Part shown: one piece after another, positions 1 through 11,201 of the stretch
Position numbering within the stretch: position 1 is the first letter of the stretch
Layout: each line of letters starts with the position of its first letter
Assembly: GCA_042218075.1 (NCBI GenBank)
Contig: JBDGRK010000034.1
Coordinates: 1 to 11,201 of the forward strand
DNA: 11,201 nucleotides
Origin: Candidatus Nanohaloarchaea archaeon
GTDB lineage: Archaea > Nanohalarchaeota > Nanosalinia > Nanosalinales > Nanosalinaceae
Direction: 5' to 3'
Made by a program: the position numbers and the translations under genes
The notes under the pieces: generated by a model
Seen by the model: the letters and a program-made list of their open reading frames with translations, nothing else
What the model was told of the DNA's origin: nothing
Databases searched by the model: none

Positions 1-335
1 GCCATGAAAACTCCAAAGCTTATCCTAGCGAGTTGGTACGTGGTAAAACCTGAGTTAAGTCCTAAGTTCATCGAGGCTATAAATATAGCGGTGAAGATTC
101 CGTAAACCGCTGAATCTGTAATCTGCTGCATCTCCATCTCATCGACAATCCCGCAGGTGCCAAAGTAGTTAAGATAAGTGAGCAGATTGAAACCGATCAC
201 TCCCAAAGTCGATATACCGAACAACTGGAAAGCAGAGTATTCAAAGCCTAACAAGAAACCAAACCCCTGGATAAGCATGAAGTAAACTAGTGAAGCTTTG
301 AACGGCATCAAACCGTAATCGGCAAGTGACTTCAT
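1..335 (-). CDS. Small multi-pass membrane protein, truncated by the window edge; paralogue of 1166..1558 (DUF2178-like, tentative)
   Basis: Not in the ORF track. My translation from ATG at 335 stays open to base 1: MKSLADYGLMPFKASLVYFMLIQGFGFLLGFEYSAFQLFGISTLGVIGFNLLTYLNYFGTCGIVDEMEMQQITDSAVYGIFTAIFIASMNLGLNSGFTTYQLARISFGVFMA... It aligns by eye with 1166..1558 (GIS...IG.NL..Y...I.DE......TD....G......IAS...AR..F) and has the same upstream promoter block. Confidence 0.85.
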   Translation of the reverse strand, partial: MKSLADYGLMPFKASLVYFMLIQGFGFLLGFEYSAFQLFGISTLGVIGFNLLTYLNYFGTCGIVDEMEMQQITDSAVYGIFTAIFIASMNLGLNSGFTTYQLARISFGVFM

Positions 336-372
336 GTAATGTATGCTTTACCTTAAGTCTTATAAACTTTAC
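336..372 (-). promoter_or_regulatory. Leaderless archaeal promoter with an imperfect operator palindrome (copy 1)
   Basis: The minus strand reads GTAAAG TTTATAAG ACTTAAG GTAAAG CATA CATTAC ATG. The TATA box lies 24-31 nt before the ATG. Bases 346-372 are identical to 1569-1595. Confidence 0.8.
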
Positions 373-552
373 AAATTCGGTCTGTCTACCTGTTCTACCG
401 TTCTTCGGTTAACGAGATCTACAGATATCGAATTACAAATATTATCTCAGGTTTTTCCTGTATTTCCACAACCTGATGTAGTGGGCCTGGTATACCTTTA
501 TTGACTTTTAACTTTCCTGATAGTTTTTCAAAAATCCGTGTTCCGGTCTCCT

Positions 553-927
553 TCAGATGTAATCCGAGATCTGGTACTCCGACTCCCTGTATGCTGCAAG
601 ATAGAAGAGTAGAGATGCCATCAAGTATCCGGCTCCAGCCAAGGTATCATCAGCTGTTGTGCTCAGCACTAAAAAGGGTGAACCTAGCGCAAGATAACCT
701 GCGGCACCTACTTCATCATGCTCCCCACTCCAATCGCAGCATATAACTTCATCAGTTATTTCAGCGAAGAAGCCGGAGAAGAAAGCACCAAAGCTGACAG
801 CTATCAGCGCCCAGGCAAGTTCACTGGTAGGAATTATCAATTCGTGAAACACCAGTGTGAATAATACCGCTGCTGCAGCCCCTATAAAGCCTTTAGATAC
901 CGCATTTAACCAATCCTCGTTTTCCAT
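553..927 (-). CDS. Hypothetical membrane protein with about 4 TM helices
   Basis: 124-aa ORF with four hydrophobic segments and acidic loops. It starts 23 bp after the HTH gene stop on the same strand, so it is probably co-transcribed. Confidence 0.75.
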   Translation of the reverse strand: MENEDWLNAVSKGFIGAAAAVLFTLVFHELIIPTSELAWALIAVSFGAFFSGFFAEITDEVICCDWSGEHDEVGAAGYLALGSPFLVLSTTADDTLAGAGYLMASLLFYLAAYRESEYQISDYI

Positions 928-950
928 AAAACTGATCTATCGAATTTTTT

Positions 951-1169
951 TTATGAAATTTTCGACTCGATTGAAAAAATATCCTCCACATTGCATTCGA
1001 AGAATTCAGCAAGTTTCAGTGCAAGTTCCAGACTGGGATCGTACTTCCCTGTTTCAATAGCATTAACTGTCTGGCGGGAGACCTCCATCTCTTCCGCCAG
1101 TTCTTCCTGTGTGAGGTCTTTCTTGGCTCTCTCGACCTTGAGCTTGTTTGAAATTTCCAAGTTGTTCAT
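951..1169 (-). CDS. XRE/Cro-CI family helix-turn-helix transcriptional regulator (HTH_3, COG1476-like)
   Basis: Contains NKLKVERAKKDLTQEELAEEMEVSRQTVNAIETGKYDPSLELALKLAEFFECNVEDIF. I placed the start at 1169 rather than 1181 because it forms an ATGA overlap with the upstream stop and follows an SD-like GGCGGTG. Confidence 0.95.
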   Translation of the reverse strand: MNNLEISNKLKVERAKKDLTQEELAEEMEVSRQTVNAIETGKYDPSLELALKLAEFFECNVEDIFSIESKIS

Positions 1170-1558
1170 CCACCGCCCCATTTATGGCTCAGGCTTTTGA
1201 TGGAGAACGTTGCTATCCAGGTCCAGAAGCCGAATCTGGCTATATTCATGAAATCTACAGGTTTGGGGGAGCTTATCAGCTCTGAGGCCAGGACGGATGC
1301 TATTAATGCTGCCATGAACCCCCAGGCCATCGCGTCCGTCAGAATCTTCTGCTTCCTCTCATCTATAATGCTTTTACCATTCTTGTAGTAATTCCAGAGG
1401 TTTACACCTATAGTAACAGAAATGCTTATCCCTGCTATATGTAGCAAGCTAAGACCCAGGCTGGAATCCGAGTTCAGAATTGAAAGCGATACTCCGACAA
1501 CTGTAAGCCACATAGCCGTCATCTTGAAATCCAGAAGGTCAATTCGTTCTTTTATCAT
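1166..1558 (-). CDS. Membrane protein with a cytoplasmic 'IIDER' motif (DUF2178-like), translationally coupled to the XRE regulator
   Basis: 130 aa with about four hydrophobic segments. A DER motif follows TM2, as in small membrane proteins commonly encoded next to this type of HTH regulator. ATGA overlap at 1166-1169. Confidence 0.85.
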   Translation of the reverse strand: MIKERIDLLDFKMTAMWLTVVGVSLSILNSDSSLGLSLLHIAGISISVTIGVNLWNYYKNGKSIIDERKQKILTDAMAWGFMAALIASVLASELISSPKPVDFMNIARFGFWTWIATFSIKSLSHKWGGG

Positions 1559-1595
1559 GTAAAGAATACTTTACCTTAAGTCTTATAAACTTTAC
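1559..1595 (-). promoter_or_regulatory. Leaderless archaeal promoter with operator palindrome GTAAAG-N4-CTTTAC (copy 2)
   Basis: Bases 1559-1574 read GTAAAG AATA CTTTAC, directly against the ATG at 1558. The TATA box (TTTATAAG on minus) is at 1582-1589 and an extra half-site is at 1590-1595. Confidence 0.85.
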
Positions 1596-1670
1596 TTAAT
1601 TTACAGGTTCTCGATATTTTTGTGCAGTTCTCCGACTAACCTCCTGAAACAATCCTATAAGGCAGATGAT

Positions 1671-1877
1671 TTATTCAAGATTAGAACCTGTCAATACTTT
1701 CCATGGTGGCGGCAGTATTCCAGAAACCGTCATGACAGCTACAGGAAACCAGTAGAACGCGGCAAACCTGGAAATTGGCTGGTTCCAGAGGTAGAGAAAT
1801 CCTGCCATGATCACGAAAGACAAAATCAGCATCATCCAGACTCCTGCAACCCGCTGCTCTTCGCCGCCCATTTCCAT
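1671..1877 (-). CDS. Small hypothetical two-TM membrane protein
   Basis: Two hydrophobic stretches and an LPPPW motif. The ORF track starts it at 1922. I prefer ATG 1877 because TTTTAAAA at 1899-1906 sits at leaderless-promoter distance. Confidence 0.6.
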   Translation of the reverse strand: MEMGGEEQRVAGVWMMLILSFVIMAGFLYLWNQPISRFAAFYWFPVAVMTVSGILPPPWKVLTGSNLE

Positions 1878-2069
1878 GTGACCTGGCTGGTTCGCAGATT
1901 TTAAAATTTTATAACCTGTCATAGGTCAGGGATGAATCAGTAAATAGCGAAACCGGAGTTCACTCATGACCGAATCTAACTTTGAATATTATAAGTTGAA
2001 GCGATAGATCGGTATATAATCCGTCGAATTATTCTGCAGAGAGAAGTAAACATCAGGAATTCCTTTTTT

Positions 2070-3353
2070 CTAATTTTCAATCAGTTCAAATATCGATCTT
2101 ACTGTCAATCCGTCATCGCTTTCCAGATCCATCTCAATATCTGCATTATCTGCTATGCGATTGATCGTGTACAATCCGAGACCCCAGTTTTCTTGGGACG
2201 TGTCCATTCCTGGGCCGTCATCGCTTATTTCCACTGCCACTGAATCCTCTTCGAATTCCCAACCTATCTCGATCAAGCCCTCTTGATCCTCATAATGGTG
2301 CTCTATGCTATTCTCAATGATATTTTCGAAATACTGATTTAGATGTGGACTAGACTCAACTATCACTTCTCTTCCGGGATCCTCCAGTTCTACTTCGAGA
2401 CCAGCTGCCTCCGCTTGGTCTCTGTAACCCTCAACGCTGCTTCTAACTTTCTGGTACAGATCAATATTTCCTGCATATTCTGAACTTTCCCGGTTCTTCA
2501 TCTGCTCCAGCTTTTCAACCTTTTTTCCCATCGATCCAAGTCTTTCTTCTATAATATCTATCTCTTGAGGCACTTCTTCCAGTTCATCCTTGAGTAGTTC
2601 AAGATTGCCATCTATAATTGCCTTATCATTAGAGAGATCATGTCTCAGTATTCTCAATATTAATTCGAGATTTTTCCTGTATGATTCTCTCTGGGTCACG
2701 TCACGCTGATATCCCAGGAATACATCCTGGTCTCCTATCTGTACCGGCCATATCTCCAGTTCGTTCCAGAATTCTTCTCCTTCGGCATCATAGTTTATTA
2801 TTGTTTTCTGGACGTGTTCTTTCTCTTCAAGTGCCTGCCTGATCTCAGCTACTTTATCCTGATCTGTATCTTCCCCCTGTAGAAAACGACAATCACGTCC
2901 GAGTGCCTCTGTTCTATCATAACCTGTTAAATCTTCAAAACCCTGATTTACGTAGAAAAGTGGATGATCTCCCTGCTCGTTTCTGATCGCTGCCGTAATT
3001 CCTATCGGAGAGTGTTCAATTCCGTGATATATAGCCGGAATAAGGCCATAAACCTCGAGTTCTCCGTCCTCGACTAGAGTTTCTTCATAAGATCCTTTCA
3101 GCATCTCTGTAAAATTTCTGGGATGTGCCGAAGGTTCTGCTGAAAAGATGGGTATCTGAACCTCACCTCCTATTTCCATTTTTTCTCGGGTCTCTTGATA
3201 GGGAAGATTGGTAATGACAGCAGATGCTTCTCCGCTACTGTATGCTTTCGCTGCTTCCACAGCATCAGAGTATATTTCTACATTTAGGCTGTTTTCTTCT
3301 AAAATATCTGCCTCTCTTTCTGAACGTGTCAGAAGAATTAAATCCTGGTCCAT
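2070..3353 (-). CDS. LOV(PAS)-domain sensor histidine kinase with a degenerate receiver-like N-terminus
   Basis: LOV signatures: YVNQGFEDLTGY, GRDCRFLQG, FWNELEIWPV, FLGYQRD. Kinase signatures: H-box RILRHDLSN, N-box ENIIENSIEH, G1 ISDDGPG, G2 GLGLY. No TM segment; strongly acidic. Confidence 0.93.
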   Translation of the reverse strand: MDQDLILLTRSEREADILEENSLNVEIYSDAVEAAKAYSSGEASAVITNLPYQETREKMEIGGEVQIPIFSAEPSAHPRNFTEMLKGSYEETLVEDGELEVYGLIPAIYHGIEHSPIGITAAIRNEQGDHPLFYVNQGFEDLTGYDRTEALGRDCRFLQGEDTDQDKVAEIRQALEEKEHVQKTIINYDAEGEEFWNELEIWPVQIGDQDVFLGYQRDVTQRESYRKNLELILRILRHDLSNDKAIIDGNLELLKDELEEVPQEIDIIEERLGSMGKKVEKLEQMKNRESSEYAGNIDLYQKVRSSVEGYRDQAEAAGLEVELEDPGREVIVESSPHLNQYFENIIENSIEHHYEDQEGLIEIGWEFEEDSVAVEISDDGPGMDTSQENWGLGLYTINRIADNADIEMDLESDDGLTVRSIFELIEN

Positions 3354-3375
3354 TCACTAATTTCGTGACTGAATT

Positions 3376-3390
3376 CTTTTATAGAAGGTT
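3376..3390 (-). promoter_or_regulatory. Putative TATA box for the leaderless LOV-kinase transcript
   Basis: Minus-strand TATAAAA at 3377-3383, 24-30 nt upstream of ATG 3353. No SD sequence. Confidence 0.6.
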
Positions 3391-3654
3391 ATTGCTCTGC
3401 AAACTGTATTCTGTTCGGTGTTCCGATGAGAGTGTAGAGCTGAAGGTTCTCTGCAAATCTTAGAAGGGAATATACTTAGTTCGCAGTCACTTTACAGTGC
3501 GGGATCAAATCGAAACCGGGTATTTTTGATCACATGGATTGTTTGAGAATTAATTTGTGGAGCTATCAGGTAGCTGATATTTAATGAAGAGAAAAATTTA
3601 CTCGATCGGTACCGATCCATATTTGAACCTAAATATTGAGCCTGTTGGAACTCT

Positions 3655-4857
3655 TTATTCGTATCTGAGGGCTTCTGCCGGCGGCAGTCTGGCCGCTCTC
3701 CTTGCCGGGAGCACACCTGAAATGACTCCTACAATAAACGAGAATAGTGTGGCGCCGGTAAGCAGCTCCAGGCCAAGGTAGGCGTTTATCGTTATACCGG
3801 TGGCTTCCGTGGCTGCATAAGCGGCTGCAGTTGATAGACCGGTTCCAACAACTACTCCAAGAAATCCTCCCATCATGCCAATTATCCCGGATTCAAGTAA
3901 AAACAGAGTCATTATCTGCTTCTGTGTGGCGCCTATAGCTTTCATTACTCCTATTTCCTGCGTTCTCTGCGTTACTGATGTATACATTGTGTTCATGATA
4001 TTCACTGCTCCCACAATCAGCGATATGCTGGCTATACCTATCACAACACCTCTGACAACTGACAGAATCTTATTGAACGAGCTCAGTAGATCTTCATTCG
4101 TCGAGACCGAAAAATCTTCCTCTCCCTTTTCCAGACCTCTCTCATCTCTCAGCTCTTTCTTGACATCTTTCTTTGTTTCTTCAGGCGTGTAGCCTTCCTG
4201 GGTCTGGGCATAGATTCTATCGTATGTATTCTCTTTCCTGCCAAGGAGCTCGACCGCTGAAGCATAAGGCATCACTACAGACTGGTCCACCGCCGGGTCG
4301 CCCGTCGACTTGAATATTCCGACGACCCTGAAACTCTCCCCTTTCACCTTCAGACTCGATCTGAGGCTTAAATCCTCTTTGAAAACACGGTTTGCCACCC
4401 TGCTTCCTATAGCTATGTTTGAGGTATCGGAGCTTCTAATCTGTCTTCCTTCATCGAGGTCCAGAGCCCAGCTCTCCGCCACAAGATCTCTGTTCTCTCC
4501 TGTAGGCATGCCAAGCACTGTCACAGACTCATTCTGCCCGCCGAACTCTGCTCTAGTGGTAGCGAATACTGTTCCATCAGCCTTCTCCACAGACTTTGCT
4601 GATCTAACGGTCTGGAGATCTTCATGGGTCAGAAAGCCTGAACTTGTTGAAACAGCGCTTCCGCCGGAGTTGATGTAAACCTTGTTGCTTCCGATCTCTT
4701 CGAACTGTTGCTGGACTGAGTTCTGCAGTCCCTGTCCCAGAGATACCAGTGCCACCACAGCTGCGATGCCCACCAAAACCCCTATCACCGTGAGCCAGCT
4801 TCTCCTTCCCCTGTAGAAAATATTCCTGACCGCTATGCTGAAGAATTCGAAGATCAT
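3655..4857 (-). CDS. ABC transporter permease, MacB/FtsX family (COG0577), copy 2
   Basis: N-terminal TM RRSWLTVIGVLVGIAAVVALVSLGQG, a large extracytoplasmic domain, IMNTMYTSVTQRTQEIGVMKAIGA, and C-terminal PARRAARLPPAEALRYE. ATGA overlap with the upstream permease. Confidence 0.96.
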   Translation of the reverse strand: MIFEFFSIAVRNIFYRGRRSWLTVIGVLVGIAAVVALVSLGQGLQNSVQQQFEEIGSNKVYINSGGSAVSTSSGFLTHEDLQTVRSAKSVEKADGTVFATTRAEFGGQNESVTVLGMPTGENRDLVAESWALDLDEGRQIRSSDTSNIAIGSRVANRVFKEDLSLRSSLKVKGESFRVVGIFKSTGDPAVDQSVVMPYASAVELLGRKENTYDRIYAQTQEGYTPEETKKDVKKELRDERGLEKGEEDFSVSTNEDLLSSFNKILSVVRGVVIGIASISLIVGAVNIMNTMYTSVTQRTQEIGVMKAIGATQKQIMTLFLLESGIIGMMGGFLGVVVGTGLSTAAAYAATEATGITINAYLGLELLTGATLFSFIVGVISGVLPARRAARLPPAEALRYE

Positions 4858-6059
4858 CCGAACCTCAACGCCTCCACGGGTTCTTTCTTGGCTGCTTTTC
4901 TGGCGGGAAGAGTCCCTGACACTACACCGACCAGGAAGGAGAAAAGCACAGAACCGATTATCAGCTCGACTGATACGTAGGGGGTAAACGGTAGTGAGAC
5001 CTGGCTACGTATGATTATGCCCGCAACATAGCTAAGTCCGATACCTACCGTCGCTCCTATCAGTCCCCCGATCATCCCTACAATGCCCGATTCTATCATA
5101 AAGAGACCGAGGATCTGTCTTCGGGTGGCTCCGACCGCCTTCATCACTCCTATCTGCTTGGTCCTTTCAGTGACGGAGGTATACATCGTGTTCATTATTC
5201 CTATTCCACCTACCAGGAGCGATATGGCGCCGATCCCAAGGAGCACTCCCCTGACTATGCTCAACTGGTTCCTGAAGCTCCTGAGTATATCCTTTGCAGT
5301 CCTTACTTTGAAGTTTTCCGAACCCTTCTTTACACCCCTCTCATTCCTGAGGTTTCTCCTGATCTCATCCGCGGCTTCTTCAGGAGTGAAGCCCTGTCTT
5401 ATCTGGGCTGTAATCATCCCGTACTCATCTTTCTTGTCCAGTACTTCCCTTGCCCTCTCCATCGGCATAATTATTCCCGAGGCCCCGCTTACTGCTCCGG
5501 AGCTGGTGTAGATTCCGACTATCCTGTACTCGTCTTCAAGACCTACATTCGACCTGAGCAGCATCTCGTCCTCAAACTTATCATCTGCGATATCTTTCTC
5601 TACAATTACCGAAGTCCTATCATTCTGCCTTATGTACCTTCCCTCCTCCATCTCTATCCCAAATATTTCCTTAGCGGTATCTCTCTTCGTTCCAGCAGGA
5701 AGACCTATCACCTTGATAAACTTATTGTCCCGACGAAACTCCGCCTGTACGTTTCCAGATATCATGCCTGCGGCGGTCGCCACGCTCCGGGATCTTTCTA
5801 CAGTTTCCAGATCCTCCTCCGTCAGCTTGAAGGTTGTATCTGAGAACCTGCCGCTTATGCCTCCTCCAGGCGATACGAATACCTTGTTGCCCCCCAGTTC
5901 CCTGAGTTCTGATTTAATCGAGTTCTCAAGCCCCTGGCCGATGGAAATTAGAGAGACAACGGCCATTATGCCTATCAGAGTGCCGATTATGGTCAGCCAT
6001 GAGCGTCTTTTCCTGTGTCGAAGACTGTTCAGGGAGAGGCGGAAAAAATCCAGGAACAT
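4854..6059 (-). CDS. ABC transporter permease, MacB/FtsX family (COG0577), copy 1
   Basis: Motifs RRSWLTIIGTLIGIMAVVSLISIGQG, GGIGIMNTMYTSVTERTKQIGVMKAVGA and PARKAAKKEPVEALRFG. AGGAG lies just upstream of the ATG. Confidence 0.96.
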   Translation of the reverse strand: MFLDFFRLSLNSLRHRKRRSWLTIIGTLIGIMAVVSLISIGQGLENSIKSELRELGGNKVFVSPGGGISGRFSDTTFKLTEEDLETVERSRSVATAAGMISGNVQAEFRRDNKFIKVIGLPAGTKRDTAKEIFGIEMEEGRYIRQNDRTSVIVEKDIADDKFEDEMLLRSNVGLEDEYRIVGIYTSSGAVSGASGIIMPMERAREVLDKKDEYGMITAQIRQGFTPEEAADEIRRNLRNERGVKKGSENFKVRTAKDILRSFRNQLSIVRGVLLGIGAISLLVGGIGIMNTMYTSVTERTKQIGVMKAVGATRRQILGLFMIESGIVGMIGGLIGATVGIGLSYVAGIIIRSQVSLPFTPYVSVELIIGSVLFSFLVGVVSGTLPARKAAKKEPVEALRFG

Positions 6060-6062
6060 GTT

Positions 6063-7262
6063 TTACTCCTGTCCTTTTCTCTTTCTCCAGTAGTAGATAC
6101 CTCCTGCAGCAACCAGAAGCACCACTACAGCAATTGGAATCAAACTACTGTTTGATTTCAAGCCGTACTGCTTGAGTTCCTCCTGTGTATATAGCTCCGC
6201 GTTCACGTTCTGTGTCACCGACTGCTCTCCCTTCGCGTCCCTGTAACTTAATTCCACAGGCATCCGGATTTCCTTGACTTTGACACTCTCTGTCTCGGCA
6301 TTCACGTTTAACCTGAAGCTGGCTGTCTGGAAGTCATCCGGGTCCATGGATCCTATGTAAACTTCGTTGCTGCCGATGACCTCAATATTCTCCGTTTCAT
6401 TCAGCTGCATCGAGACAAAGTCCGCTGATCCGTGACCCCTGTTTACCAGCCTGAAAGTTATCTCCTGAGTTTTGCCGTTTTCCAGCGGTTTATCTGTGTT
6501 GATTGCTGCCTTCAGCTGGGGTTCTCCTCCAACCCTGACTCCGGTTGTCAAAGACTGCTCAAACTCAGTCCCGGCCTCGTTCTCAAAACTGATATCCACA
6601 GGTAGCCTGTATACAGAGTTTTCAGCCGATCCGTCTATGTTCAGGGTGTAATTTACCTTCCGCGACTCTGAAGGCCCGATCTGGACGATATGTTTCCTGG
6701 AGGACTCACTTGTCGCCATCGGCAGATCGTCGGAGAGATCAAGTCCGACCTGGATGTTTTTCAGCTGTGAATCCGCAAGATTGGTCAATTTCAGTTGCAT
6801 CTGGTTGCTGGATCCTGGTGCGACATTATCAGGAAACTCCACGCTTTTCACAGCCAGGACGTTTCTATCGCTCCTGACCTCGACATCTACCTTCTCTATG
6901 TAGGAGAAATCTCCCTGTTTTAGCTCGAAATTCAATGTGTTGTTGCCCTGGACGGCGTTGGAATCCACCCTTGTCTGTAGATGTAGCTGGTATTCTTCAC
7001 CAGGGACGATACTTCCTATCGACCATTTTTTCCTGTCGTCGCCGTCCACGGAGAACGGATAGTTTTCCCTGAAGGATACATGGACGTTATCGGCTTCCGA
7101 GTTACCCTCGTTAGTTACTTCAAGCCAGACGTCCGCGTATTCGGAGGTCTGGAGAGGTGCCGGTTCCGTTTTCTTCAGCTCTATCTCCAGCTGGTTTGTC
7201 GGTTGCGCTGCTGAAAGTGAAACAACCAGCAGTAATGCGGTCGCCAATCCAGTTCTCTTCAT
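6063..7262 (-). CDS. Secreted, C-terminally anchored beta-sandwich repeat protein (COG1361 S-layer-domain family), ABC accessory subunit
   Basis: Signal peptide MKRTGLATALLLVVSLSAA. Three repeats of the form 'l.l.N.g...a..v' (VTNEGNSEADNV, LTNLADSQLKNI, LVNRGHGSADFV). C-terminal TM followed by the basic tail WRKRK. Lies between the ATPase and the permeases. Confidence 0.85.
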   Translation of the reverse strand: MKRTGLATALLLVVSLSAAQPTNQLEIELKKTEPAPLQTSEYADVWLEVTNEGNSEADNVHVSFRENYPFSVDGDDRKKWSIGSIVPGEEYQLHLQTRVDSNAVQGNNTLNFELKQGDFSYIEKVDVEVRSDRNVLAVKSVEFPDNVAPGSSNQMQLKLTNLADSQLKNIQVGLDLSDDLPMATSESSRKHIVQIGPSESRKVNYTLNIDGSAENSVYRLPVDISFENEAGTEFEQSLTTGVRVGGEPQLKAAINTDKPLENGKTQEITFRLVNRGHGSADFVSMQLNETENIEVIGSNEVYIGSMDPDDFQTASFRLNVNAETESVKVKEIRMPVELSYRDAKGEQSVTQNVNAELYTQEELKQYGLKSNSSLIPIAVVVLLVAAGGIYYWRKRKGQE

Positions 7263-7266
7263 AGAC

Positions 7267-7962
7267 TCACTCCTCCAGTTCTTCCTGTTTAACTTCTCTA
7301 TCCGGGTTTGTCACACCATCTATTATCTGGATCGTTCTATCCGCGTAATCCGCATCATTCGGGTCGTGAGTAACCATGATGATGGTTTTTCCCTCCTTGT
7401 TTAAATCGGTAAGCAGATCCATTATTTTTGCTCCTGTATCCGTGTCCAGGTTTCCTGTTGGCTCATCGGCCAAAATAATTTCGGGATTGTTGGCCAGCGA
7501 TCTTGCTATTGAGACCCTCTGTCTCTGACCCCCTGAAAGTTCTGAAGGTCTATGTCTCGTTCTATCTCCCAGCCCGACGTCTTCCAGAAGTTTTAGGGCC
7601 CTTTCTTTCCTTTTTTTCTTGCTCTTTCCCCTGAAAAGCATCGGCAGAGCCACGTTCTGCCATGCGTTCATCGAATTTATCAGGTTGAACTCCTGGAAGA
7701 TAAATCCGACTTTGCGGCTCCTGAGATGAGCCAGCTCATCCTCGGTCATTTCCTCTATCTTTTCTTCCCCGATATTCACTTCTCCGCCCGTCGGGACATC
7801 CAGAGCTCCTATCATATTCATCAGGGTGCTCTTGCCTGAACCCGAGGGCCCCATTATCGCGACAAACTCTCCTTCCTCAATCTCGACATCTGAACCTCTC
7901 AGGGCCTTAACTTCTGTCTCACCCAGCTGGTAGACTTTTTCGACATCTTCCAAGCTTATCAT
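7267..7962 (-). CDS. ABC transporter ATP-binding protein, LolD/MacB family (COG1136)
   Basis: Walker A GPSGSGKST, Q-loop GFIFQEFNL, signature LSGGQRQRV, Walker B/D-loop IILADEPTGNLD, H-loop MVTHD. Confidence 0.98.
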   Translation of the reverse strand: MISLEDVEKVYQLGETEVKALRGSDVEIEEGEFVAIMGPSGSGKSTLMNMIGALDVPTGGEVNIGEEKIEEMTEDELAHLRSRKVGFIFQEFNLINSMNAWQNVALPMLFRGKSKKKRKERALKLLEDVGLGDRTRHRPSELSGGQRQRVSIARSLANNPEIILADEPTGNLDTDTGAKIMDLLTDLNKEGKTIIMVTHDPNDADYADRTIQIIDGVTNPDREVKQEELEE

Positions 7963-8091
7963 GTCAGTTTCAGTCCCCTGAATGAATCCTGGACTAATAA
8001 ATAATTTAACCTCCGTCGATGTTTAAAATCCATCTGAATTTGTATGTCTCCGGCACAGGATTAATTAGGCTGGACTTAAAATTTCTGAGGC

Positions 8092-8592
8092 ATGGAGGCA
8101 GAAAAATTCAGACCTCTGATAGGAGTTTTCGGTTTCGTCGCGGTTTCTACCGCTTCCATAACATACTTCCGGTCCGACTACTCCATAATGTCGATCGGGA
8201 AGACGTTCATGTCCATGTTCTTCCTGACTTTCGGTTCGTTCAAGCTTTACAACCTGGAGGGATTCAGGGAAGCCTTCATGAACTACGATCCTGTAGCTGA
8301 GAAAAGTAGTCTTTACGCTACTCTCTACCCGTTTTTAGAGGTTTCAATCGGACTTCTTTACTTCCTTCTGCTCCACGTTTCATTCCAGATGCTGGCGATA
8401 TCGGTTTTCAGCCTGACGATTCTCCTGATGGTAATGAACGGTTCAGGAGTTCTGCATGCGCTCAGAGAAGGCAGGGATCTACAGTGCGCATGCCTGGGTA
8501 ATGTGTTCAACGTTCCGATGACATGGGTGACATTGACCGAGGACTCTCTGATGGCTCTCATGGCTTTCTGGATGCTATTATCGGTTATCTAG
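8092..8592 (+). CDS. MauE/DoxX-family membrane protein
   Basis: Motifs FFLTFGSFKL, F.EAFMNYD, YPFLEVSIG, LQCACLG.VFNVPM..VTL.ED, with about five hydrophobic segments. TATA-like TTAATTA at 8061-8067. Confidence 0.85.
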   Translation: MEAEKFRPLIGVFGFVAVSTASITYFRSDYSIMSIGKTFMSMFFLTFGSFKLYNLEGFREAFMNYDPVAEKSSLYATLYPFLEVSIGLLYFLLLHVSFQMLAISVFSLTILLMVMNGSGVLHALREGRDLQCACLGNVFNVPMTWVTLTEDSLMALMAFWMLLSVI

Positions 8593-8619
8593 TCAAAAGG
8601 ACAGAATACTGTATTGCAG

Positions 8620-9321
8620 CTACCGCAGAGTTTTCAGAATGCTGAAGCTTTCTCTTTCCAGCCTCGCAACGTAGTTCTCAAGTCTCCTCTCGTACTTTAC
8701 GGATAGCAGACTTATACCTGCCAGGAGTGACGCGGAGCCGAGAAGGTTTAAGGGGTTGGCATTAGCGGCGCTGCTTCCGGTCGTGGCCAGAAGGGCTATA
8801 CCGGGTATCCTCCCGATGGATGCCATCAGGAAGAGCTTTTTCAGGTCAAGGTCCGTGAGCCCGGCGACGAAGCAGAGTGCATCGTCGGGGAAGCCCGGGA
8901 ATACGAAGAGCACAAGGAAGGGAAGGTATCCGTGTCCCGAAGTGTACCTGTCAAACTTTTCCATCCCTTCGTCGGATAGAAACTTTTCAACCGCAGACCT
9001 GCCGTACCTCCTCGCGATCAGTAATGCGACCAGACTTCCAATCGCAGCCCCGATGAAACTGTAAAGTGTTCCCTCCACTGCACCGTACAACATGCCGCTG
9101 ACCACCGGTACCGCTGGAGGTAGTGGAGCTATCATGACCTGGGCGAACTGCGCCAAAATCACACCTGGCGGGCCGTAAGGCCCCACTATTCCGGCTATCC
9201 TCTGGGAGGTGAATGTAAAGGAGGAGGAAAAAAGTTCGAAACCTATAAAGCTGACAATTGACACTGTCGCGGCCAGAATGGCTGTTTCTATTTTTCGTTT
9301 CCTGGATGAGAATACTTGCAT
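8620..9321 (-). CDS. TVP38/TMEM64 (VTT domain, DedA superfamily) membrane protein
   Basis: Motifs QFAQVMIAPLP, SGMLYG...GTLYS.IG..IGS...L.IARRYGR, FVFPGFPDDALCFVAGLT and GRIPG. Confidence 0.93.
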   Translation of the reverse strand: MQVFSSRKRKIETAILAATVSIVSFIGFELFSSSFTFTSQRIAGIVGPYGPPGVILAQFAQVMIAPLPPAVPVVSGMLYGAVEGTLYSFIGAAIGSLVALLIARRYGRSAVEKFLSDEGMEKFDRYTSGHGYLPFLVLFVFPGFPDDALCFVAGLTDLDLKKLFLMASIGRIPGIALLATTGSSAANANPLNLLGSASLLAGISLLSVKYERRLENYVARLERESFSILKTLR

Positions 9322-9984
9322 CTATAAAGAGTAATTTCGGACCTCCGACTTTAATTTTTGGCCATACTTCCTGTAGAAAATGTAAACGACCAGAGCAGCA
9401 GCACCGATCAATGTAAGTGTTCTGGAAAAGTTTTTTATCTTTGAGACTATGAGACCGTAGTTTTGCCCGGCCTTCCAGCCTAGGTAGCCGTAACCTATAT
9501 GGCGAGGGATCATTCCTATGAATGTTATTAACCCGTAAGGCTTCCAGTCCATCCTGAAAATGCCGGCAGCTACGGAGACCGTGGTAATCGGAAATATGGG
9601 AAGAATTCTGAACAGCATGAGATAGCTTTTCTCCTTCTCATCGCTGAAATGACTTTCGAAACTCTCAACATCCTGCCAGGAAAAGTTAGCGTATTTTCCT
9701 ATCCTGTTTATGGCGGGTTTGCCTCCATATAAACCCGCCCCGTACATAAAAAACGATCCGGCTGTTATACCCAGTGATCCTATCAGGCTTATCTCCAGGA
9801 ATATCTCGACCAGGGCCGGCCAGAGTGCAGTAGTTTCTACCAGTAGAGCCCCTGCACTGACTATGATTAATGCCGCCGGTATTACGAAGAGCACTTCCTC
9901 CAGTATCATGCCTGTAAAAATCGCTGCCAATCCGTAATTCCGGATGAACTGTACGATGGATGCCTCTGCCACAATCTCCGACAT
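9322..9984 (-). CDS. DedA-family membrane protein
   Basis: Motifs YGLAAIFTGMILEEVLFVIPA, GSFFMYGAGLYGGK, FRILPIFP...SVAAG.FRM and YLGW. Its stop codon directly abuts the TVP38 ATG. TATA-like ATAAATA (minus) at 10007-10013. Confidence 0.92.
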   Translation of the reverse strand: MSEIVAEASIVQFIRNYGLAAIFTGMILEEVLFVIPAALIIVSAGALLVETTALWPALVEIFLEISLIGSLGITAGSFFMYGAGLYGGKPAINRIGKYANFSWQDVESFESHFSDEKEKSYLMLFRILPIFPITTVSVAAGIFRMDWKPYGLITFIGMIPRHIGYGYLGWKAGQNYGLIVSKIKNFSRTLTLIGAAALVVYIFYRKYGQKLKSEVRNYSL

Positions 9985-10206: not shown

Positions 10207-10214
10207 AGGTTTTC

Positions 10215-10256
10215 TGGAGGTGATCCAGCCGATGGTTCCCCAACGGCTACCTTGTT
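10215..10256 (-). rRNA. rrs: 16S rRNA 3' exon (A1499 to 3' end: helix 45 and anti-Shine-Dalgarno)
   Basis: The minus strand reads AACAAGGUAGCCGUUGGGGAACCAUCGGCUGGAUCACCUCCA. The exact mature 3' end is uncertain by a few nt. Confidence 0.97.
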
Positions 10257-11077
10257 CGCTTGCTCCCACACTAAGGTGGTCGGACGTCGTGAAGACGTCA
10301 CCCTGACTCGCGTCAAGGCGCGGACTGTATCATCTCCCTCAGCAGTTGATTTTTTCGTGGATGCCAAGACCCAATCTTTCTGGCAAATTCCTGATGAGAT
10401 TTACTGGATATGTAGAATCTCCAGTAATCAGGTTTTGCGGTTTTACTGGGTCTGTGCAGCTTACCTGTGTTTATGTCGAACTCTTCGAGGAAGTTCTTGA
10501 CTTCCTTGAGATCTTTTTCGTCCTTCTGTGCGAAGTAGATGTAAAATCGCACGTCTTGACTTTTTGGAACGCTTCCTTCCGCGTCGAAATAACCGCGGAC
10601 ATAGTCCTTTCTCTCGGACTCTGAGCTAATCTCAAAGTCTTGAAGAACTTGCTTGCTGAACTCGACGACATGAACTCCTCTCCCACCTTCCTCGTAAATC
10701 CAGGATTTGAATCCCAAATCGTTGATAATCGAGGAAAGTTTTTCGACAAGTTCACGATTTTTCTGCGAGATTCTGTAAGTGTAATCTCGCTCCGTCGAGT
10801 CGTGAAGCATTCCCTTCAGGTAAGCCTTTGACATCCTTGAATCAACTTGTTTAGGGGCCGGCGTGCAGTCTCTGAGGGGCTATCCTTCTCTGTTTCCAGA
10901 TTTGGAGTGAGCTTCCCTGCGGATTGACCGCATCACTCGGAAATTGTTACCTAATGATTCTCCGAGCCTGAAAAAGCTGACGGAGACTATTCCGGTATTC
11001 CGAGATACTTGCGGTGTTTCCCGCATACAGCCGGTTTTATCTCAGACCTTTCGATCTGAGGTCACAATTCAAGGATT
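10257..11077 (-). mobile_element. Group I intron (821 nt, probably subgroup IB) in 16S rRNA at S1498
   Basis: The 5' exon ends in U and the intron ends in G. P1: GUCAU|AAU pairs with AUUGUGAC, with a U-G wobble at the splice site. P2 has a GAAA loop (11041-11060). P UAUGCGGGAAA (11017-11027), Q AAUCCGCAGG (10916-10925), R UCAGAGACUGCA (10864-10875), S AUGAUACAGUCC (10322-10333). P9 has a GCGA loop (10301-10318). Confidence 0.95.
10313..10834 (-). CDS. Intron-encoded LAGLIDADG homing endonuclease, two-motif type with a divergent first motif
   Basis: Motif 2 is DYVRGYFDAEGS followed by IYFAQKD..DL..VK.FL. Motif 1 is AYLKGMLHDS followed by YRISQKNRELVEKL. The ORF starts in the intron L8 loop. 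Confidence 0.92.
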   Translation of the reverse strand: MSKAYLKGMLHDSTERDYTYRISQKNRELVEKLSSIINDLGFKSWIYEEGGRGVHVVEFSKQVLQDFEISSESERKDYVRGYFDAEGSVPKSQDVRFYIYFAQKDEKDLKEVKNFLEEFDINTGKLHRPSKTAKPDYWRFYISSKSHQEFARKIGSWHPRKNQLLREMIQSAP

Positions 11078-11201
11078 ATGACTTAGCCCCCCTTGCCAAG
11101 CTCAGACTTGCATCCGGAAAACCGGAGGCTCGTCTGAACCTGACTCGGGTGACTTGACAGGCGGTGTGTACAAGGAGCAGGGACTTATTCGCCGCTAGAT
11201 G
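11078..11201 (-). rRNA. rrs: Archaeal 16S rRNA, upstream exon (helices 43-44 to U1498), continuing beyond the window
   Basis: The minus strand reads ...GAAUAAGUCCCUGCUCCUUGUACACACCGCCUGUCAAG...GGGGGGCUAAGUCAU. CCCUGCUCCUUG is the archaeal form of this segment. Confidence 0.97.

What the first reader, a model, noticed from the sequence alone, without database searches (positions are those of the whole stretch)
10257..11077. Complete group I intron in the 16S decoding centre (S1498) of a probable nanohaloarchaeon
Seen: removing 10257-11077 restores ...AAGUCAU|AACAAGGUAG..., and the full core can be folded by hand. P1 is 8 bp with the U1498-G wobble. P10 pairs intron CCUUG(AA)UU with 3' exon AACAAGG. 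P3 is CCGGC/GCCGG, P4 UGCGG/CCGCA and P5 ACCGCA/UGCGGU, with a long extension (CUCGGAA/UUCCGAG, UACC/GGUA, A-rich GGUAACAAU). P7 is GACUG/CAGUC, the distal P8 stem is AGUUGAUU/AAUCAACU, and P9, P9.1, P9.2 and the terminal G follow. Established: classic archaeal rRNA introns are bulge-helix-bulge introns cut by the tRNA endonuclease. Group I introns have been reported in archaeal (largely DPANN) rDNA, and position 1498 is a known intron site in giant sulfur bacteria. Inference: this is an active ribozyme that may have to fold at high intracellular salt, and splicing is essential if this is the only 16S copy. I do not know of a characterised example from this lineage.
Basis: partly seen in the sequence, partly recalled or inferred. 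Interest (0 to 1): 0.85.

Follow-up and report, generated by a model that had tools for sequence, protein, structure and literature searches.

The report
Mobile group I intron in 16S
A self-splicing-type (group I) intron that carries its own homing-endonuclease gene interrupts the decoding-centre end of a salt-lake nano-archaeon's 16S rRNA gene; it is real, but it belongs to an intron family already reported at this exact site in a close relative.

Summary
Window 10257-11077 (minus strand, 821 nt) is a complete group I intron after the U equivalent to E. coli 16S U1498. Rfam RF00028 scores it 57.9 bits against a cut-off of 50. Intron-less relatives read AAGUCAU|AACAAGG exactly. Every core helix is intact, and a 27-intron family alignment shows strong covariation.

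It sits in the P8 loop and its last 12 codons run through P8'-J8/7-P7'-P9.

The host is a nanohaloarchaeon. It shares a genome-taxonomy family with Ca. Nanosalinarum J07AB56.

It is not new in kind. Nawrocki et al. 2018 list the J07AB56 homologue as IB4.8, SSU/1498. Same-site introns with homologous endonucleases occur in Aenigmatarchaeota and in many bacterial 16S genes. Among the relatives searched I found all stages: intron with ORF, ORF-less intron, and empty site.

Splicing is inferred, not shown; no RNA data for this organism were found. Verdict: new member of a known kind, moderate interest.

The parts
11078..11201 (-). 5' exon: 3'-domain fragment of archaeal 16S rRNA (helix 44 3' strand), ending ...AAGUCAU; cut off by the contig end
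   Evidence: Rfam RF01959 89.3 bits, model 1309-1478, truncated 5'. Relatives match query 1-126 at 89-94%.
10257..11077 (-). Group I intron, 821 nt, inserted after the U equivalent to E. coli U1498; ends in the terminal G at 10257
   Evidence: RF00028 57.9 bits against cut-off 50. Empty-site alleles in relatives. Helix check.
11061..11068 (-). Internal guide sequence AUUGUGAC (3' strand of P1); pairs with exon GUCAU plus intron AAU, with the U.G wobble at the splice site
   Evidence: 8/8 pairs and MFE. The guide sequence covaries with the exon: A-U in 3 nanohaloarchaeal rows, G-C in 24 others (pair 7-24).
11070..11074 (-). P1-loop CCUUG, complementary to 3' exon C3-G7 (extended P10)
   Evidence: 5/5 pairs. 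The same loop is in G002. 12 of 65 unique same-site inserts have a loop complement of 5 nt or more; 39 have only GUU or another 3-mer.
11041..11060 (-). P2 hairpin CUCAGAUC-GAAA-GGUCUGAG
   Evidence: 8/8 pairs. All 6 family-alignment P2 pairs show compensatory changes.
11030..11034 (-). P3 5' strand CCGGC (pairs with 10858-10862)
   Evidence: 5/5 pairs. 2 of 5 pairs covary.
10875..11025 (-). P4-P5-P5 extension-P6/P6a domain. P4 is 11020-11025 with 10918-10923. P5 is 11010-11015 with 10927-10932. P6/P6a is 10875-10918.
   Evidence: P4 6/6, P5 6/6, P6 4/4, P6a 3/3.
10866..10870 (-). P7 5' strand GACUG (pseudoknot partner 10323-10327)
   Evidence: 5/5 pairs. Pair 276-371 is A-U in 21 rows and G-C in 5.
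10858..10862 (-). P3 3' strand GCCGG
10840..10856 (-). P8 5' strand (CCCUAAACA plus distal AGUUGAUU)
   Evidence: Proximal 7/9, distal 8/8.
10313..10834 (-). Homing endonuclease ORF, 173 aa plus TGA stop; two-domain LAGLIDADG enzyme like I-DmoI. It starts 5 nt after the distal P8 stem and ends inside the P9 5' strand.
   Evidence: ORF. PF14528 at 1.7e-21. 635 homologues. Model pLDDT 89.9. Foldseek I-DmoI E 4.5e-9, TM 0.68.
10336..10351 (-). P8 3' strand AAUCAACUGCUGAGGG (also codes ...NQLLR...)
10323..10327 (-). P7 3' strand CAGUC (also codes Q-S of the ORF tail)
10266..10322 (-). J7/9 with P9.0 (G757-C820 and C758-G819), P9 (10301-10318, GCGA loop), P9.1 (10283-10299), P9.2 (10266-10279)
   Evidence: P9 7/7, P9.1 6/6, P9.2 4/4. 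Family P9.0 and P9 covary. In G000 P9.0 is 2 of 3 pairs by my reading.
10213..10256 (-). 3' exon: AACAAGGUAGCC...GGAUCACCUCC, the 3' end of 16S (helix 45, anti-Shine-Dalgarno)
   Evidence: Relatives match query 946-989 at 93-100%. Sequence.

Best explanation
Window 10257-11077 (minus strand) is a mobile group I intron of the IB4-like family that occupies site 1498 of small-subunit rRNA genes. Here it sits in the 16S gene of a nanohaloarchaeon from a salt lake.

Proposed mechanism: after transcription the RNA folds into the canonical core (P1-P2, P3-P8, P4-P6, P7, P9). An exogenous guanosine bound in P7 attacks after the U of the U.G pair in P1. The 3' exon is then aligned by P10 (CCUUG/CAAGG plus UU/AA) and by P9.0. 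The terminal G at 10257 is used for exon ligation, giving mature ...AAGUCAUAACAAGG....

The P8 loop encodes a 173-aa, monomeric, two-domain LAGLIDADG endonuclease shaped like I-DmoI. It presumably cuts intron-less 16S alleles at this site, so that repair copies the intron in (homing). Its C-terminal 12 codons are also the P8'-J8/7-P7'-P9 ribozyme core.

Shown here: identity, boundaries, intact helices, family covariation, intact ORF and fold, and presence/absence polymorphism among relatives. Inferred only: actual splicing, endonuclease activity and target, and mobility.
For: Identity and boundaries:
- RF00028 gives a full-length hit at 57.9 bits against a cut-off of 50. The same-genus ORF-less copy scores 58.5 bits.
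- In the search of 60 relatives' genomes, 27 matched. By my reading of the match coordinates, 20 have 5' and 3' exon matches abutting (empty site), 3 (G002, G015, G029) have an ORF-less insert at the same site, and 4 are unresolved.
- The empty sites read AAGTCAT|AACAAGG.

Structure:
- All core helices are canonical in this copy. The 5' domain has z = -6.12.
- On 27 ORF-less same-site introns, 96.5% of 1477 cells are paired, against 31.5-41.9% when partners are slid. 30 of 55 pairs show compensatory change. 0 of 500 shuffles reach any measure.
- The guide sequence tracks the host exon: GUCAU with GUGAC in nanohaloarchaea, GUCGU with GCGAC elsewhere.

Need for splicing:
- The single-contig relative G002 has one SSU match, and it holds the intron.

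Endonuclease:
- PF14528 at 1.7e-21. There are 635 homologues, and the ORF keeps every invariant column of a 26-sequence alignment.
- The model has pLDDT 89.9 and pTM 0.87. The best PDB matches are I-DmoI over 175-192 columns, E 4.5e-9.
- Homologous endonucleases sit at the same place in same-site introns: Aenigmatarchaeota at 68% identity, and 31 of 65 metagenome inserts.

Independent support and precedent:
- A run from another study (X2) holds a 657-nt contig covering intron, ORF and 28 nt of 5' exon.
- Nawrocki et al. 2018 Table 1 lists IB4.8, Nanohaloarchaeota, SSU/1498, 293 nt. That is the G015/J07AB56 intron aligned here.
Against: - There is no RNA evidence. No RNA run holds this organism. 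The only RNA contig with the ligated junction comes from a soil metatranscriptome, differs at 3 positions, and could come from an intron-less relative.
- The 16S is truncated at the contig end, and the assembly has no other rRNA. Copy number in this organism itself is therefore unknown.
- The contigs bridging the junctions carry only 28-29 exon letters, under the tool's 31-letter rule.
- Two of the three ORF-less nanohaloarchaeal relatives (J07AB56 and G029) do not reach the RF00028 cut-off.
- The 3' tail alone folds no better than 10 of 200 shuffles.
- P9.0 is only 2 of 3 pairs here.
- The first LAGLIDADG motif (LKGMLHDSTE) is atypical. Sequence similarity to solved enzymes is not significant (E 0.5).
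Confidence: 0.9

Rival explanations
1. A decaying relic. The element is a former group I intron whose ribozyme, endonuclease or both no longer work. It would be removed by host factors, or the 16S copy would be a pseudogene alongside an unassembled intact copy.
For: The homing cycle clearly runs to decay in this family. There are ORF-less copies in G002, G015 and G029. There is an in-frame TAA in the Aenigmatarchaeota L027 ORF. The rest of the 16S and any second copy are not assembled. No splicing data exist.
Against: Every core helix and the terminal G are intact. Lineage-specific compensatory changes in P1, P4, P7 and the base of P8 keep pairing. The ORF is full length and keeps all invariant residues. 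Complete single-contig relatives show one 16S locus each, and G002's only SSU match carries the intron.
Confidence: 0.06
2. Assembly or binning artefact. The intron, or its junctions with nanohaloarchaeal exons, would be a chimera made by the metagenome assembler at a conserved rRNA repeat.
For: The contig ends inside the 16S. Unitigs in the runs break at 11105 and 10228, so no single listed piece has 31 or more letters on both sides of a junction.
Against: Both junctions lie inside the contig, with 10 kb of flanking genes. A VTT-domain gene downstream of the 16S is shared with G029 at 57.6% aa identity. A second study's run holds the same intron-to-5'-exon junction. Three relatives carry homologous introns at the same nucleotide. 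The guide sequence matches the nanohaloarchaeon-specific exon base A1497.
Confidence: 0.02
3. A bulge-helix-bulge (archaeal endonuclease-dependent) intron that merely resembles a group I intron.
For: BHB introns are the classical archaeal rRNA introns and often carry LAGLIDADG genes; I-DmoI itself comes from one (PDB titles; the background is recalled knowledge).
Against: The full-length RF00028 hit, the U.G pair and terminal G, the P3/P7 pseudoknot with covariation, and homologues in bacterial 16S genes, which lack the BHB machinery. By eye, the only exon-intron complementarity at the junctions is of the P1 and P10 type. No formal BHB search was run.
Confidence: 0.01

Closest known systems
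Intron IB4.8 of Ca. Nanosalinarum sp. J07AB56 (Nawrocki, Jones and Eddy 2018, NAR 46:7970, Table 1; Results section read)
   Same: Same insertion nucleotide (SSU/1498; flanks AAGUCAU|AACAAGG). Same genome-taxonomy family as the window's organism. Homologous core with 76-96% identity in the aligned blocks. Same GUGAC guide sequence.
   Different: IB4.8 is 293 nt and has no ORF. A homologous endonuclease gene lies outside the intron, about 110 nt beyond the 16S 3' end. The window's copy is 821 nt with the ORF in P8. IB4.8 does not reach the RF00028 cut-off, while the window's copy does.
Micrarchaeota SSU/1498 introns IB4.19 and IB4.26 (same paper)
   Same: Same site and comparable size (735 and 743 nt), which suggests an ORF. 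Archaeal DPANN hosts.
   Different: Different phylum. I did not fetch their sequences, so homology to this copy is not tested. The paper's supplementary table was not available to me.
16S insertion site '1498' (16IS10) of CPR bacteria, carrying LAGLIDADG_2 or LAGLIDADG_3 proteins (Tsurumaki et al. 2024, J Bacteriol 206:e00074-24; passages read)
   Same: Same rRNA position, group I-like inserts and a LAGLIDADG_3 endonuclease. The window's enzyme has homologues that sources label as Patescibacteria. 57 of 65 metagenome same-site inserts have bacterial-type 5' exons.
   Different: Bacterial hosts. The exon base is G1497 with guide sequence GCGAC. P7 is A-U closed, and its UAG is the ORF's stop codon. 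Their supplementary figures, which detail the site, were not available to me.
I-DmoI (monomeric two-domain LAGLIDADG endonuclease; PDB 2vs7, 1b24)
   Same: Same fold over the whole length (TM 0.65-0.70, E 4.5e-9). Similar size (173 against about 190 aa). Two LAGLIDADG-type helices ending in acidic residues (D12 and E86).
   Different: About 19% identity, and the sequence search is not significant. By recall, I-DmoI sits in a 23S BHB intron of a crenarchaeon. The first motif here is LKGMLHD rather than the consensus.
Group I and II introns in 16S genes of giant sulfur bacteria (Salman et al. 2012, PNAS 109:4203; not held, seen only as cited)
   Same: Self-splicing introns in prokaryotic 16S genes, shown there by experiment according to the citing paper.
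   Different: Whether one of their sites equals 1498 could not be checked. My recollection of a site named S1495 is unverified.

Membership tests
Group I catalytic intron (Rfam RF00028) | Covariance-model score at or above the curated gathering score | tested here: met
   57.9 bits against 50, model 1-253 complete, E 7.5e-13.
Group I catalytic intron (Rfam RF00028) | P1 formed by the 5' exon and an internal guide sequence, with a U.G wobble at the 5' splice site; terminal G at the 3' end | tested here: met
   P1 8/8 with U-1.G13; last intron base is G at 10257. U.G is invariant in 27 of 27 family rows, and the neighbouring pair covaries with the host exon.
Group I catalytic intron (Rfam RF00028) | Conserved core: P3-P8 and P4-P6 domains with the P3/P7 pseudoknot, supported by covariation | tested here: met
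   All helices are intact in this copy. In the family, 96.5% of cells are paired, 30 of 55 pairs show compensatory change, and slid controls give 31.5-41.9%.
Group I catalytic intron (Rfam RF00028) | Guanosine-dependent two-step self-splicing | not testable with these tools
   Needs in-vitro transcription and splicing, or RNA from the organism. No RNA run holds it.
SSU/1498 IB4 introns of archaea (Nawrocki et al. 2018) | Insertion after the position equivalent to E. coli 16S U1498 | tested here: met
   Same flanks as the J07AB56 intron, which the paper numbers SSU/1498. My own E. coli numbering is from recall.
SSU/1498 IB4 introns of archaea (Nawrocki et al. 2018) | Sequence homology to a listed member | tested here: met
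   Alignment A1 with G015, which is J07AB56 IB4.8. blastn blocks show 76-96% identity.
SSU/1498 IB4 introns of archaea (Nawrocki et al. 2018) | Best hit to the GISSD IB4 subtype model rather than to other subtypes | not testable with these tools
   Subtype models are not on hand. The subtype is taken from the paper's call for the homologue.
LAGLIDADG homing endonuclease, LAGLIDADG_3 / I-DmoI-like | Pfam family hit above the cut-off | tested here: met
   PF14528 76.7 bits against 22.5, in two stretches.
LAGLIDADG homing endonuclease, LAGLIDADG_3 / I-DmoI-like | Two alpha-beta-beta-alpha-beta-beta-alpha half-domains in one chain, each with a LAGLIDADG helix ending in an acidic residue | tested here: met
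   The model has helices 3-12 and 72-86 ending at D12 and E86. It aligns full length to I-DmoI. The geometry of the two acids was not measured.
LAGLIDADG homing endonuclease, LAGLIDADG_3 / I-DmoI-like | Site-specific cleavage of the intron-less allele | not testable with these tools
   Needs purified protein and a target plasmid.
Archaeal bulge-helix-bulge intron | BHB motif spanning both exon-intron junctions | not tested
   No BHB search tool was used. Inspection of the junctions shows only P1/P10-type pairing.

The most novel reading that the evidence does not exclude
The S1498 intron and its I-DmoI-like endonuclease form one actively moving element. It is exchanged between DPANN archaea (Nanohaloarchaeota, Aenigmatarchaeota) and ultra-small or other bacteria, and it retunes its guide sequence to each host's exon (GUGAC for the nanohaloarchaeal A1497). 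In the Nanosalinarum lineage the endonuclease gene has left the intron and sits free-standing just beyond the 16S gene. That would be an archaeal case of 'collaborative homing' between an ORF-less intron and a neighbouring endonuclease.
Probability: 0.3. Interest if true: 0.6.

Novelty: new member of a known kind. Interest (0 to 1): 0.35.

Why it matters
It adds an ORF-bearing, apparently complete copy to a family known so far only from computational listings. Together with its relatives it lays out the whole homing cycle inside one archaeal family:
- empty site in 20 of 27 matched relatives;
- intron with endonuclease (this window);
- ORF-less intron in 3 relatives;
- endonuclease displaced outside the intron (J07AB56).

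The exon-guide covariation (A1497 with U in the guide, on top of a U1404-A1497 swap in helix 44) is good comparative evidence that splicing is under selection in these organisms.

There is also a practical point. An 821-nt insert 44 nt from the 3' end of 16S lengthens or spoils amplicons made with universal 3'-end reverse primers. It also breaks assemblies, as it did here. This can bias surveys against such nano-archaea.

If tested, the ribozyme would be a natural candidate for studying group I folding at very high intracellular salt. Nothing here shows salt adaptation.

Tried and rejected
- RNA evidence for splicing. The look-up of sequencing runs listed one RNA run, a soil metatranscriptome holding 0.06 of the words. 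Read laying gave one 170-nt RNA contig joining 10254 to 11076, with 3 other letters. I reject it as evidence because it may be rRNA of an intron-less relative. The DNA runs X2 and X3 show the same joint, which means intron-less relatives are present. No part-without-cover argument is made.
- Own-genome search for the rest of the 16S or for a 23S gene found nothing. The SSU search did not even report the window's own 173-nt fragment, so it says nothing about copy number.
- Sequence search of the endonuclease against the PDB was not significant (E 0.23-0.83). The fold search was used instead.
- The thermodynamic fold of the 5' domain pairs the P4 5' strand with the P5 5' strand locally. I rejected this in favour of canonical P4 and P5, because the bacterial members (UGCUGG with UCAGCA) cannot form the local hairpin while the canonical pairs covary.
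- RNAalifold's extra pairs 373-409, 374-408 and 376-406 were dropped before the count. They clash with P7, involve the terminal G or the exon, and never vary.
- In alignment A2 the 3' ends of G015 and G029 are misaligned by MAFFT, so their P9.0 cells count as unpaired.
- The 'HEG broken/partial' class is unreliable. A single '*' is often the relative's own stop aligned to this ORF's 4-codon extension. I therefore use only '31 of 65 with a tblastn hit, 34 without'.
- The HEG tree used 36 rows that I chose. Bacterial inserts whose longest ORF was under 140 aa dropped out. The order inside the 10-row DPANN clade is unresolved, so no donor is claimed.
- Giant-sulfur-bacteria site: Salman et al. 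2012 is not held, and a search for site names gave only unrelated papers.
- Only Nawrocki 2018 and Tsurumaki 2024 bear on site 1498. Supplements were closed and may hold more.
Full report
WHAT IS THERE

The window is an entire 11,201-base contig (C28) of a 1.10-Mb, 40-contig assembly, 92% complete and 1.2% contaminated. On the minus strand, Rfam finds the last part of an archaeal 16S rRNA (11201-11029, model positions 1309-1478, cut off by the contig end). It also finds a full-length group I intron match (RF00028, 11087-10301, 57.9 bits against a cut-off of 50, E 7.5e-13).

Reading the sequence:
- The 5' exon ends ...GGGGGGCUAAGUCAU at 11078.
- The insert runs from 11077 to 10257 (821 nt) and ends in G.
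- The 3' exon begins AACAAGGUAGCCGUUGGGGAACCAUCGGCUGGAUCACCUCC at 10256.

BOUNDARIES TESTED AGAINST RELATIVES

I searched 60 related genomes with the 989-base exon-intron-exon stretch. 27 matched. From the match coordinates:
- 20 have the 5'-exon match abutting the 3'-exon match, so the site is empty.
- 3 (G002, G015, G029) have a shorter insert at the same place.
- 4 are unresolved because only one exon matched.

Intron-less same-genus (L009) and same-family (L008) genes read AAGTCAT|AACAAGGTAGCC. The inserts in G002, G015 and G029 are 275, 293 and 341 nt. They align with the window's intron everywhere except a roughly 500-nt block. G002's insert scores 58.5 bits on RF00028. G015's and G029's stay below the cut-off.

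WHO THE HOST IS

Locus L004 of G015 is contained in GenBank scaffold GL982569.1 of Ca. Nanosalinarum sp. J07AB56. L006 of G029 is contained in a 'Ca. Nanohaloarchaea archaeon' MAG contig. Both are placed in the same family as the window's genome.

The gene downstream of the 16S (a VTT/DedA-type membrane protein) is shared with G029 at 57.6% identity. The best DNA holder among the sequencing runs is a salt-lake metagenome. 'Probable nanohaloarchaeon' is therefore supported.

STRUCTURE

- P1 8/8 with U-1.G13, P2 8/8, P3 5/5, P4 6/6, P5 6/6, P6 4/4, P6a 3/3, P7 5/5.
- P8 proximal 7/9 and distal 8/8.
- P9 7/7, P9.1 6/6, P9.2 4/4.
- P10 as CCUUG/CAAGG (5/5) plus UU/AA.

The 228-nt 5' domain folds at -88.6 kcal/mol (z = -6.12; 0 of 200 shuffles as good) and recovers P1, P2, P3 and the P5 extension. 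The 74-nt 3' tail is not exceptional by energy (z = -1.75; 10 of 200 shuffles as good).

For comparative evidence I collected more same-site introns in two scans.
- A 20-base core pattern found 16 genome contigs. Two are nanohaloarchaeal, and two are from Aenigmatarchaeota, with the match at the 16S 3' end. The rest are mostly group I introns in bacterial 23S genes.
- A pattern requiring G in front of AACAAGGUAGCC...GGAUCACCUCC found more than 109 metagenome contigs, of which 80 were fetched. In 65 of those 80 I could place both junctions.

I aligned 27 distinct ORF-less introns with 8-nt exon flanks (A2). On that alignment a structure with P1, P2, P3, P4, P5, P6/6a, P7 (as a pseudoknot), the base of P8, P9.0 and P9 gives:
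- 96.5% of 1477 cells paired, against 31.5-41.9% when 3' partners are slid by 1-3 columns.
- 30 of 55 pairs with compensatory changes, against 8-15 in the slid controls.
- 0 of 500 column shuffles reaching any of the five measures.

The tool's own warning applies: related sequences can beat shuffles without any structure. The slid controls are the stronger comparison here.

THE MOST TELLING COVARIATION

The nanohaloarchaeal 16S has A instead of the nearly universal G before U1498 (AAGUCAU). It also has U instead of C at the helix-44 partner: 11 of 11 nanohaloarchaeal loci where both motifs were found, while the Aenigmatarchaeota locus has C and G. The numbering 1404/1497 is from my recall.

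The intron's guide sequence follows this change. It reads GUGAC in the nanohaloarchaeal introns (3 of 3 in A2, and the window's copy) and GCGAC in the other 24. The nanohaloarchaeal copies also carry compensated swaps in P4 (U-A to G-C), in P7 (A-U to G-C) and at the base of P8. This is what a ribozyme kept functional in this host lineage should look like.

The roughly 500-nt block is an ORF, 10834-10313, of 173 aa.
- It matches Pfam LAGLIDADG_3 (PF14528, 1.7e-21, two stretches).
- It has 635 homologues at E <= 0.001 among 696 candidates. The few that sources name are 'LAGLIDADG family homing endonuclease' of Patescibacteria, a Hadesarchaea protein, J07AB56_10270, and a Nanohaloarchaea H01 protein.
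- In a 26-sequence alignment it keeps all invariant columns, including H11 and the GYFDxEG motif. Acidic residues (D12, E86) end the two long helices.
- The AlphaFold model is confident (pLDDT 89.9, pTM 0.87). It aligns over its whole length with the monomeric two-domain enzyme I-DmoI (Foldseek E 4.5e-9, TM 0.65-0.70, about 19% identity). Sequence-only comparison with the PDB is not significant.

The ORF starts 5 nt after the distal P8 stem. Its last 12 codons (NQLLREMIQSAP) are read from the P8 3' strand, J8/7, the P7 3' strand and the first bases of P9. In the bacterial relatives the stop is the UAG of the P7 strand UAGUC (tails ...LRMKI). The nanohaloarchaeal P7 swap to CAGUC removes that stop, and the frame runs 4 codons further to a UGA inside P9. 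This is my reading of those alignments.

A MOBILE FAMILY, NOT A ONE-OFF

- The Aenigmatarchaeota contig L029 has a 780-nt intron at the same site (exon AAGUCGU, guide GCGAC). Its endonuclease is 68% identical over 173 aa.
- A second Aenigmatarchaeota contig (L027) has the ORF with an in-frame TAA.
- Of the 65 metagenome inserts, 31 give a tblastn hit to the endonuclease (35-56% identity) and 34 do not.
- By BLAST of their 5' exons, 57 look bacterial, 1 archaeal and 7 are undecided.
- In a maximum-likelihood tree of 36 chosen endonucleases, the nanohaloarchaeal, Aenigmatarchaeota and J07AB56-type proteins form one clade (support 94/93). That clade sits inside a larger group with the Patescibacteria, Hadesarchaea and bacterial-16S proteins. 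The order within the clade is unresolved.

DOES IT SPLICE?

This is not shown. No RNA run holds this organism, and the one RNA contig with the ligated junction cannot be assigned to it.

The indirect case:
- The core is intact.
- The compensatory changes are lineage-specific.
- G002, a same-genus single-contig genome (98% complete), has one SSU rRNA match, and that gene carries the ORF-less intron. An 821- or 275-nt insert between helix 44 and helix 45 would not be tolerated in the decoding centre; that last point is an inference from established ribosome structure.

An independent study's run (X2) holds a 657-nt contig with 5 differences that spans intron, ORF and 28 nt of 5' exon. This argues against an assembly chimera, although it falls short of the tool's 31-letter bridging rule.

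COMPARISON WITH WHAT IS KNOWN

Nawrocki, Jones and Eddy (2018) searched all archaeal GenBank sequences with subtype models and reported 39 group I introns. Three are in SSU rRNA, all at position 1498:
- IB4.8 from Nanohaloarchaeota (AEIX01000219.1, 293 nt).
- IB4.19 and IB4.26 from Micrarchaeota (735 and 743 nt).

They note that SSU/1498 was the only site not seen before for group I introns. They also report that 21 of the 39 introns carry LAGLIDADG ORFs, and that RF00028 itself found nothing in their search. IB4.8 has the length and source of the G015 intron aligned here.

Tsurumaki et al. (2024) describe a frequent insertion site at 16S position 1498 in CPR bacteria, with LAGLIDADG_2 and LAGLIDADG_3 proteins, and they argue for spread by homing.

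So the kind of element, the site and even the host lineage are in print, all from computation. What this window adds:
- the ORF-containing form in Nanohaloarchaeota;
- the presence/absence series within one family;
- the exon-guide covariation;
- the overlap between the ORF tail and the ribozyme core.

VERDICT

Novelty was overstated. This is a new member of a known kind, of moderate interest (0.35). The boldest reading still open is that the element moves between DPANN archaea and bacteria, and that in J07AB56 the endonuclease has become a free-standing neighbour of the rRNA gene.

Noticed in passing
L147:681-1208 (G015, which is Ca. Nanosalinarum J07AB56, scaffold GL982569.1); also L004:2074-2601: A full-length homologue of the intron endonuclease lies outside the ORF-less S1498 intron, about 110 nt past the 16S 3' end. 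It is 175 aa, has a GTG start, equals J07AB56_10270, and is 61% identical to the window's enzyme. It lacks the ribozyme-encoded C-terminal tail, as do its nearest relatives P0005 and P0006. This is possibly a free-standing endonuclease working with an ORF-less intron.
   Followed up: partly
L147:2475-2800: In the same J07AB56 scaffold, a run of N is followed by a second, intron-less copy of the last ~280 nt of the 16S (AAGTCAT|AACAAGG). The trailer is identical for ~70 nt and then diverges. This is either a scaffolding join of two population variants (intron-plus and intron-minus alleles) or a partial duplication.
   Followed up: partly
window 11078-11084 and 11155-11170 (minus strand); loci L003-L021: Nanohaloarchaeal 16S genes carry A instead of the near-universal G before U1498, and U instead of C in the CCGCC(C/U)GUCA motif. 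This looks like a compensated U-A replacement of the C1404-G1497 pair at the top of helix 44 (numbering recalled). It holds in 11 of 11 loci where both motifs were found; the Aenigmatarchaeota locus L029 has C and G.
   Followed up: partly
L027:1-760: An Aenigmatarchaeota contig starts inside a same-site intron. Its endonuclease ORF has an in-frame TAA (…AWI*EEG…) and an early stop, so it is a decaying copy.
   Followed up: no
L023, L025, L026, L030, L031, L033, L034, L035, L037: The 20-base P6-J6/7-P7-P3 core of this intron occurs exactly in group I introns of bacterial 23S genes (Actinomycetota/Gaiellales, Solirubrobacteraceae, 'Marinacidobacterales'). L031 and L033 each have two RF00028 hits in one 23S gene.
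   Followed up: no
L090, L101 (504 nt), L103 (1011 nt), L061 (897 nt), L067 (814 nt), L085 (684 nt): These same-site 16S inserts give no hit to this endonuclease. L090 and L103 also lack the G[CU]GAC guide motif in the first 40 nt. They may be other insert types or other ORFs at site 1498.
   Followed up: no
window 10254/11076 joint in run X12: A soil metatranscriptome contig (170 nt, 3 differences) carries the nanohaloarchaeon-type ligated junction AAGUCAU|AACAAGG. This is unexpected for soil, and its origin is unknown.
   Followed up: no
window 1-9984: The rest of the contig is ordinary: a PAS-histidine kinase, two MacB/FtsX-type permeases with an ABC ATPase, a CARDB-domain protein, a MauE-like protein, and two tandem VTT/DedA membrane proteins directly downstream of the 16S. 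There is no tRNA and no 23S next to the 16S.
   Followed up: yes
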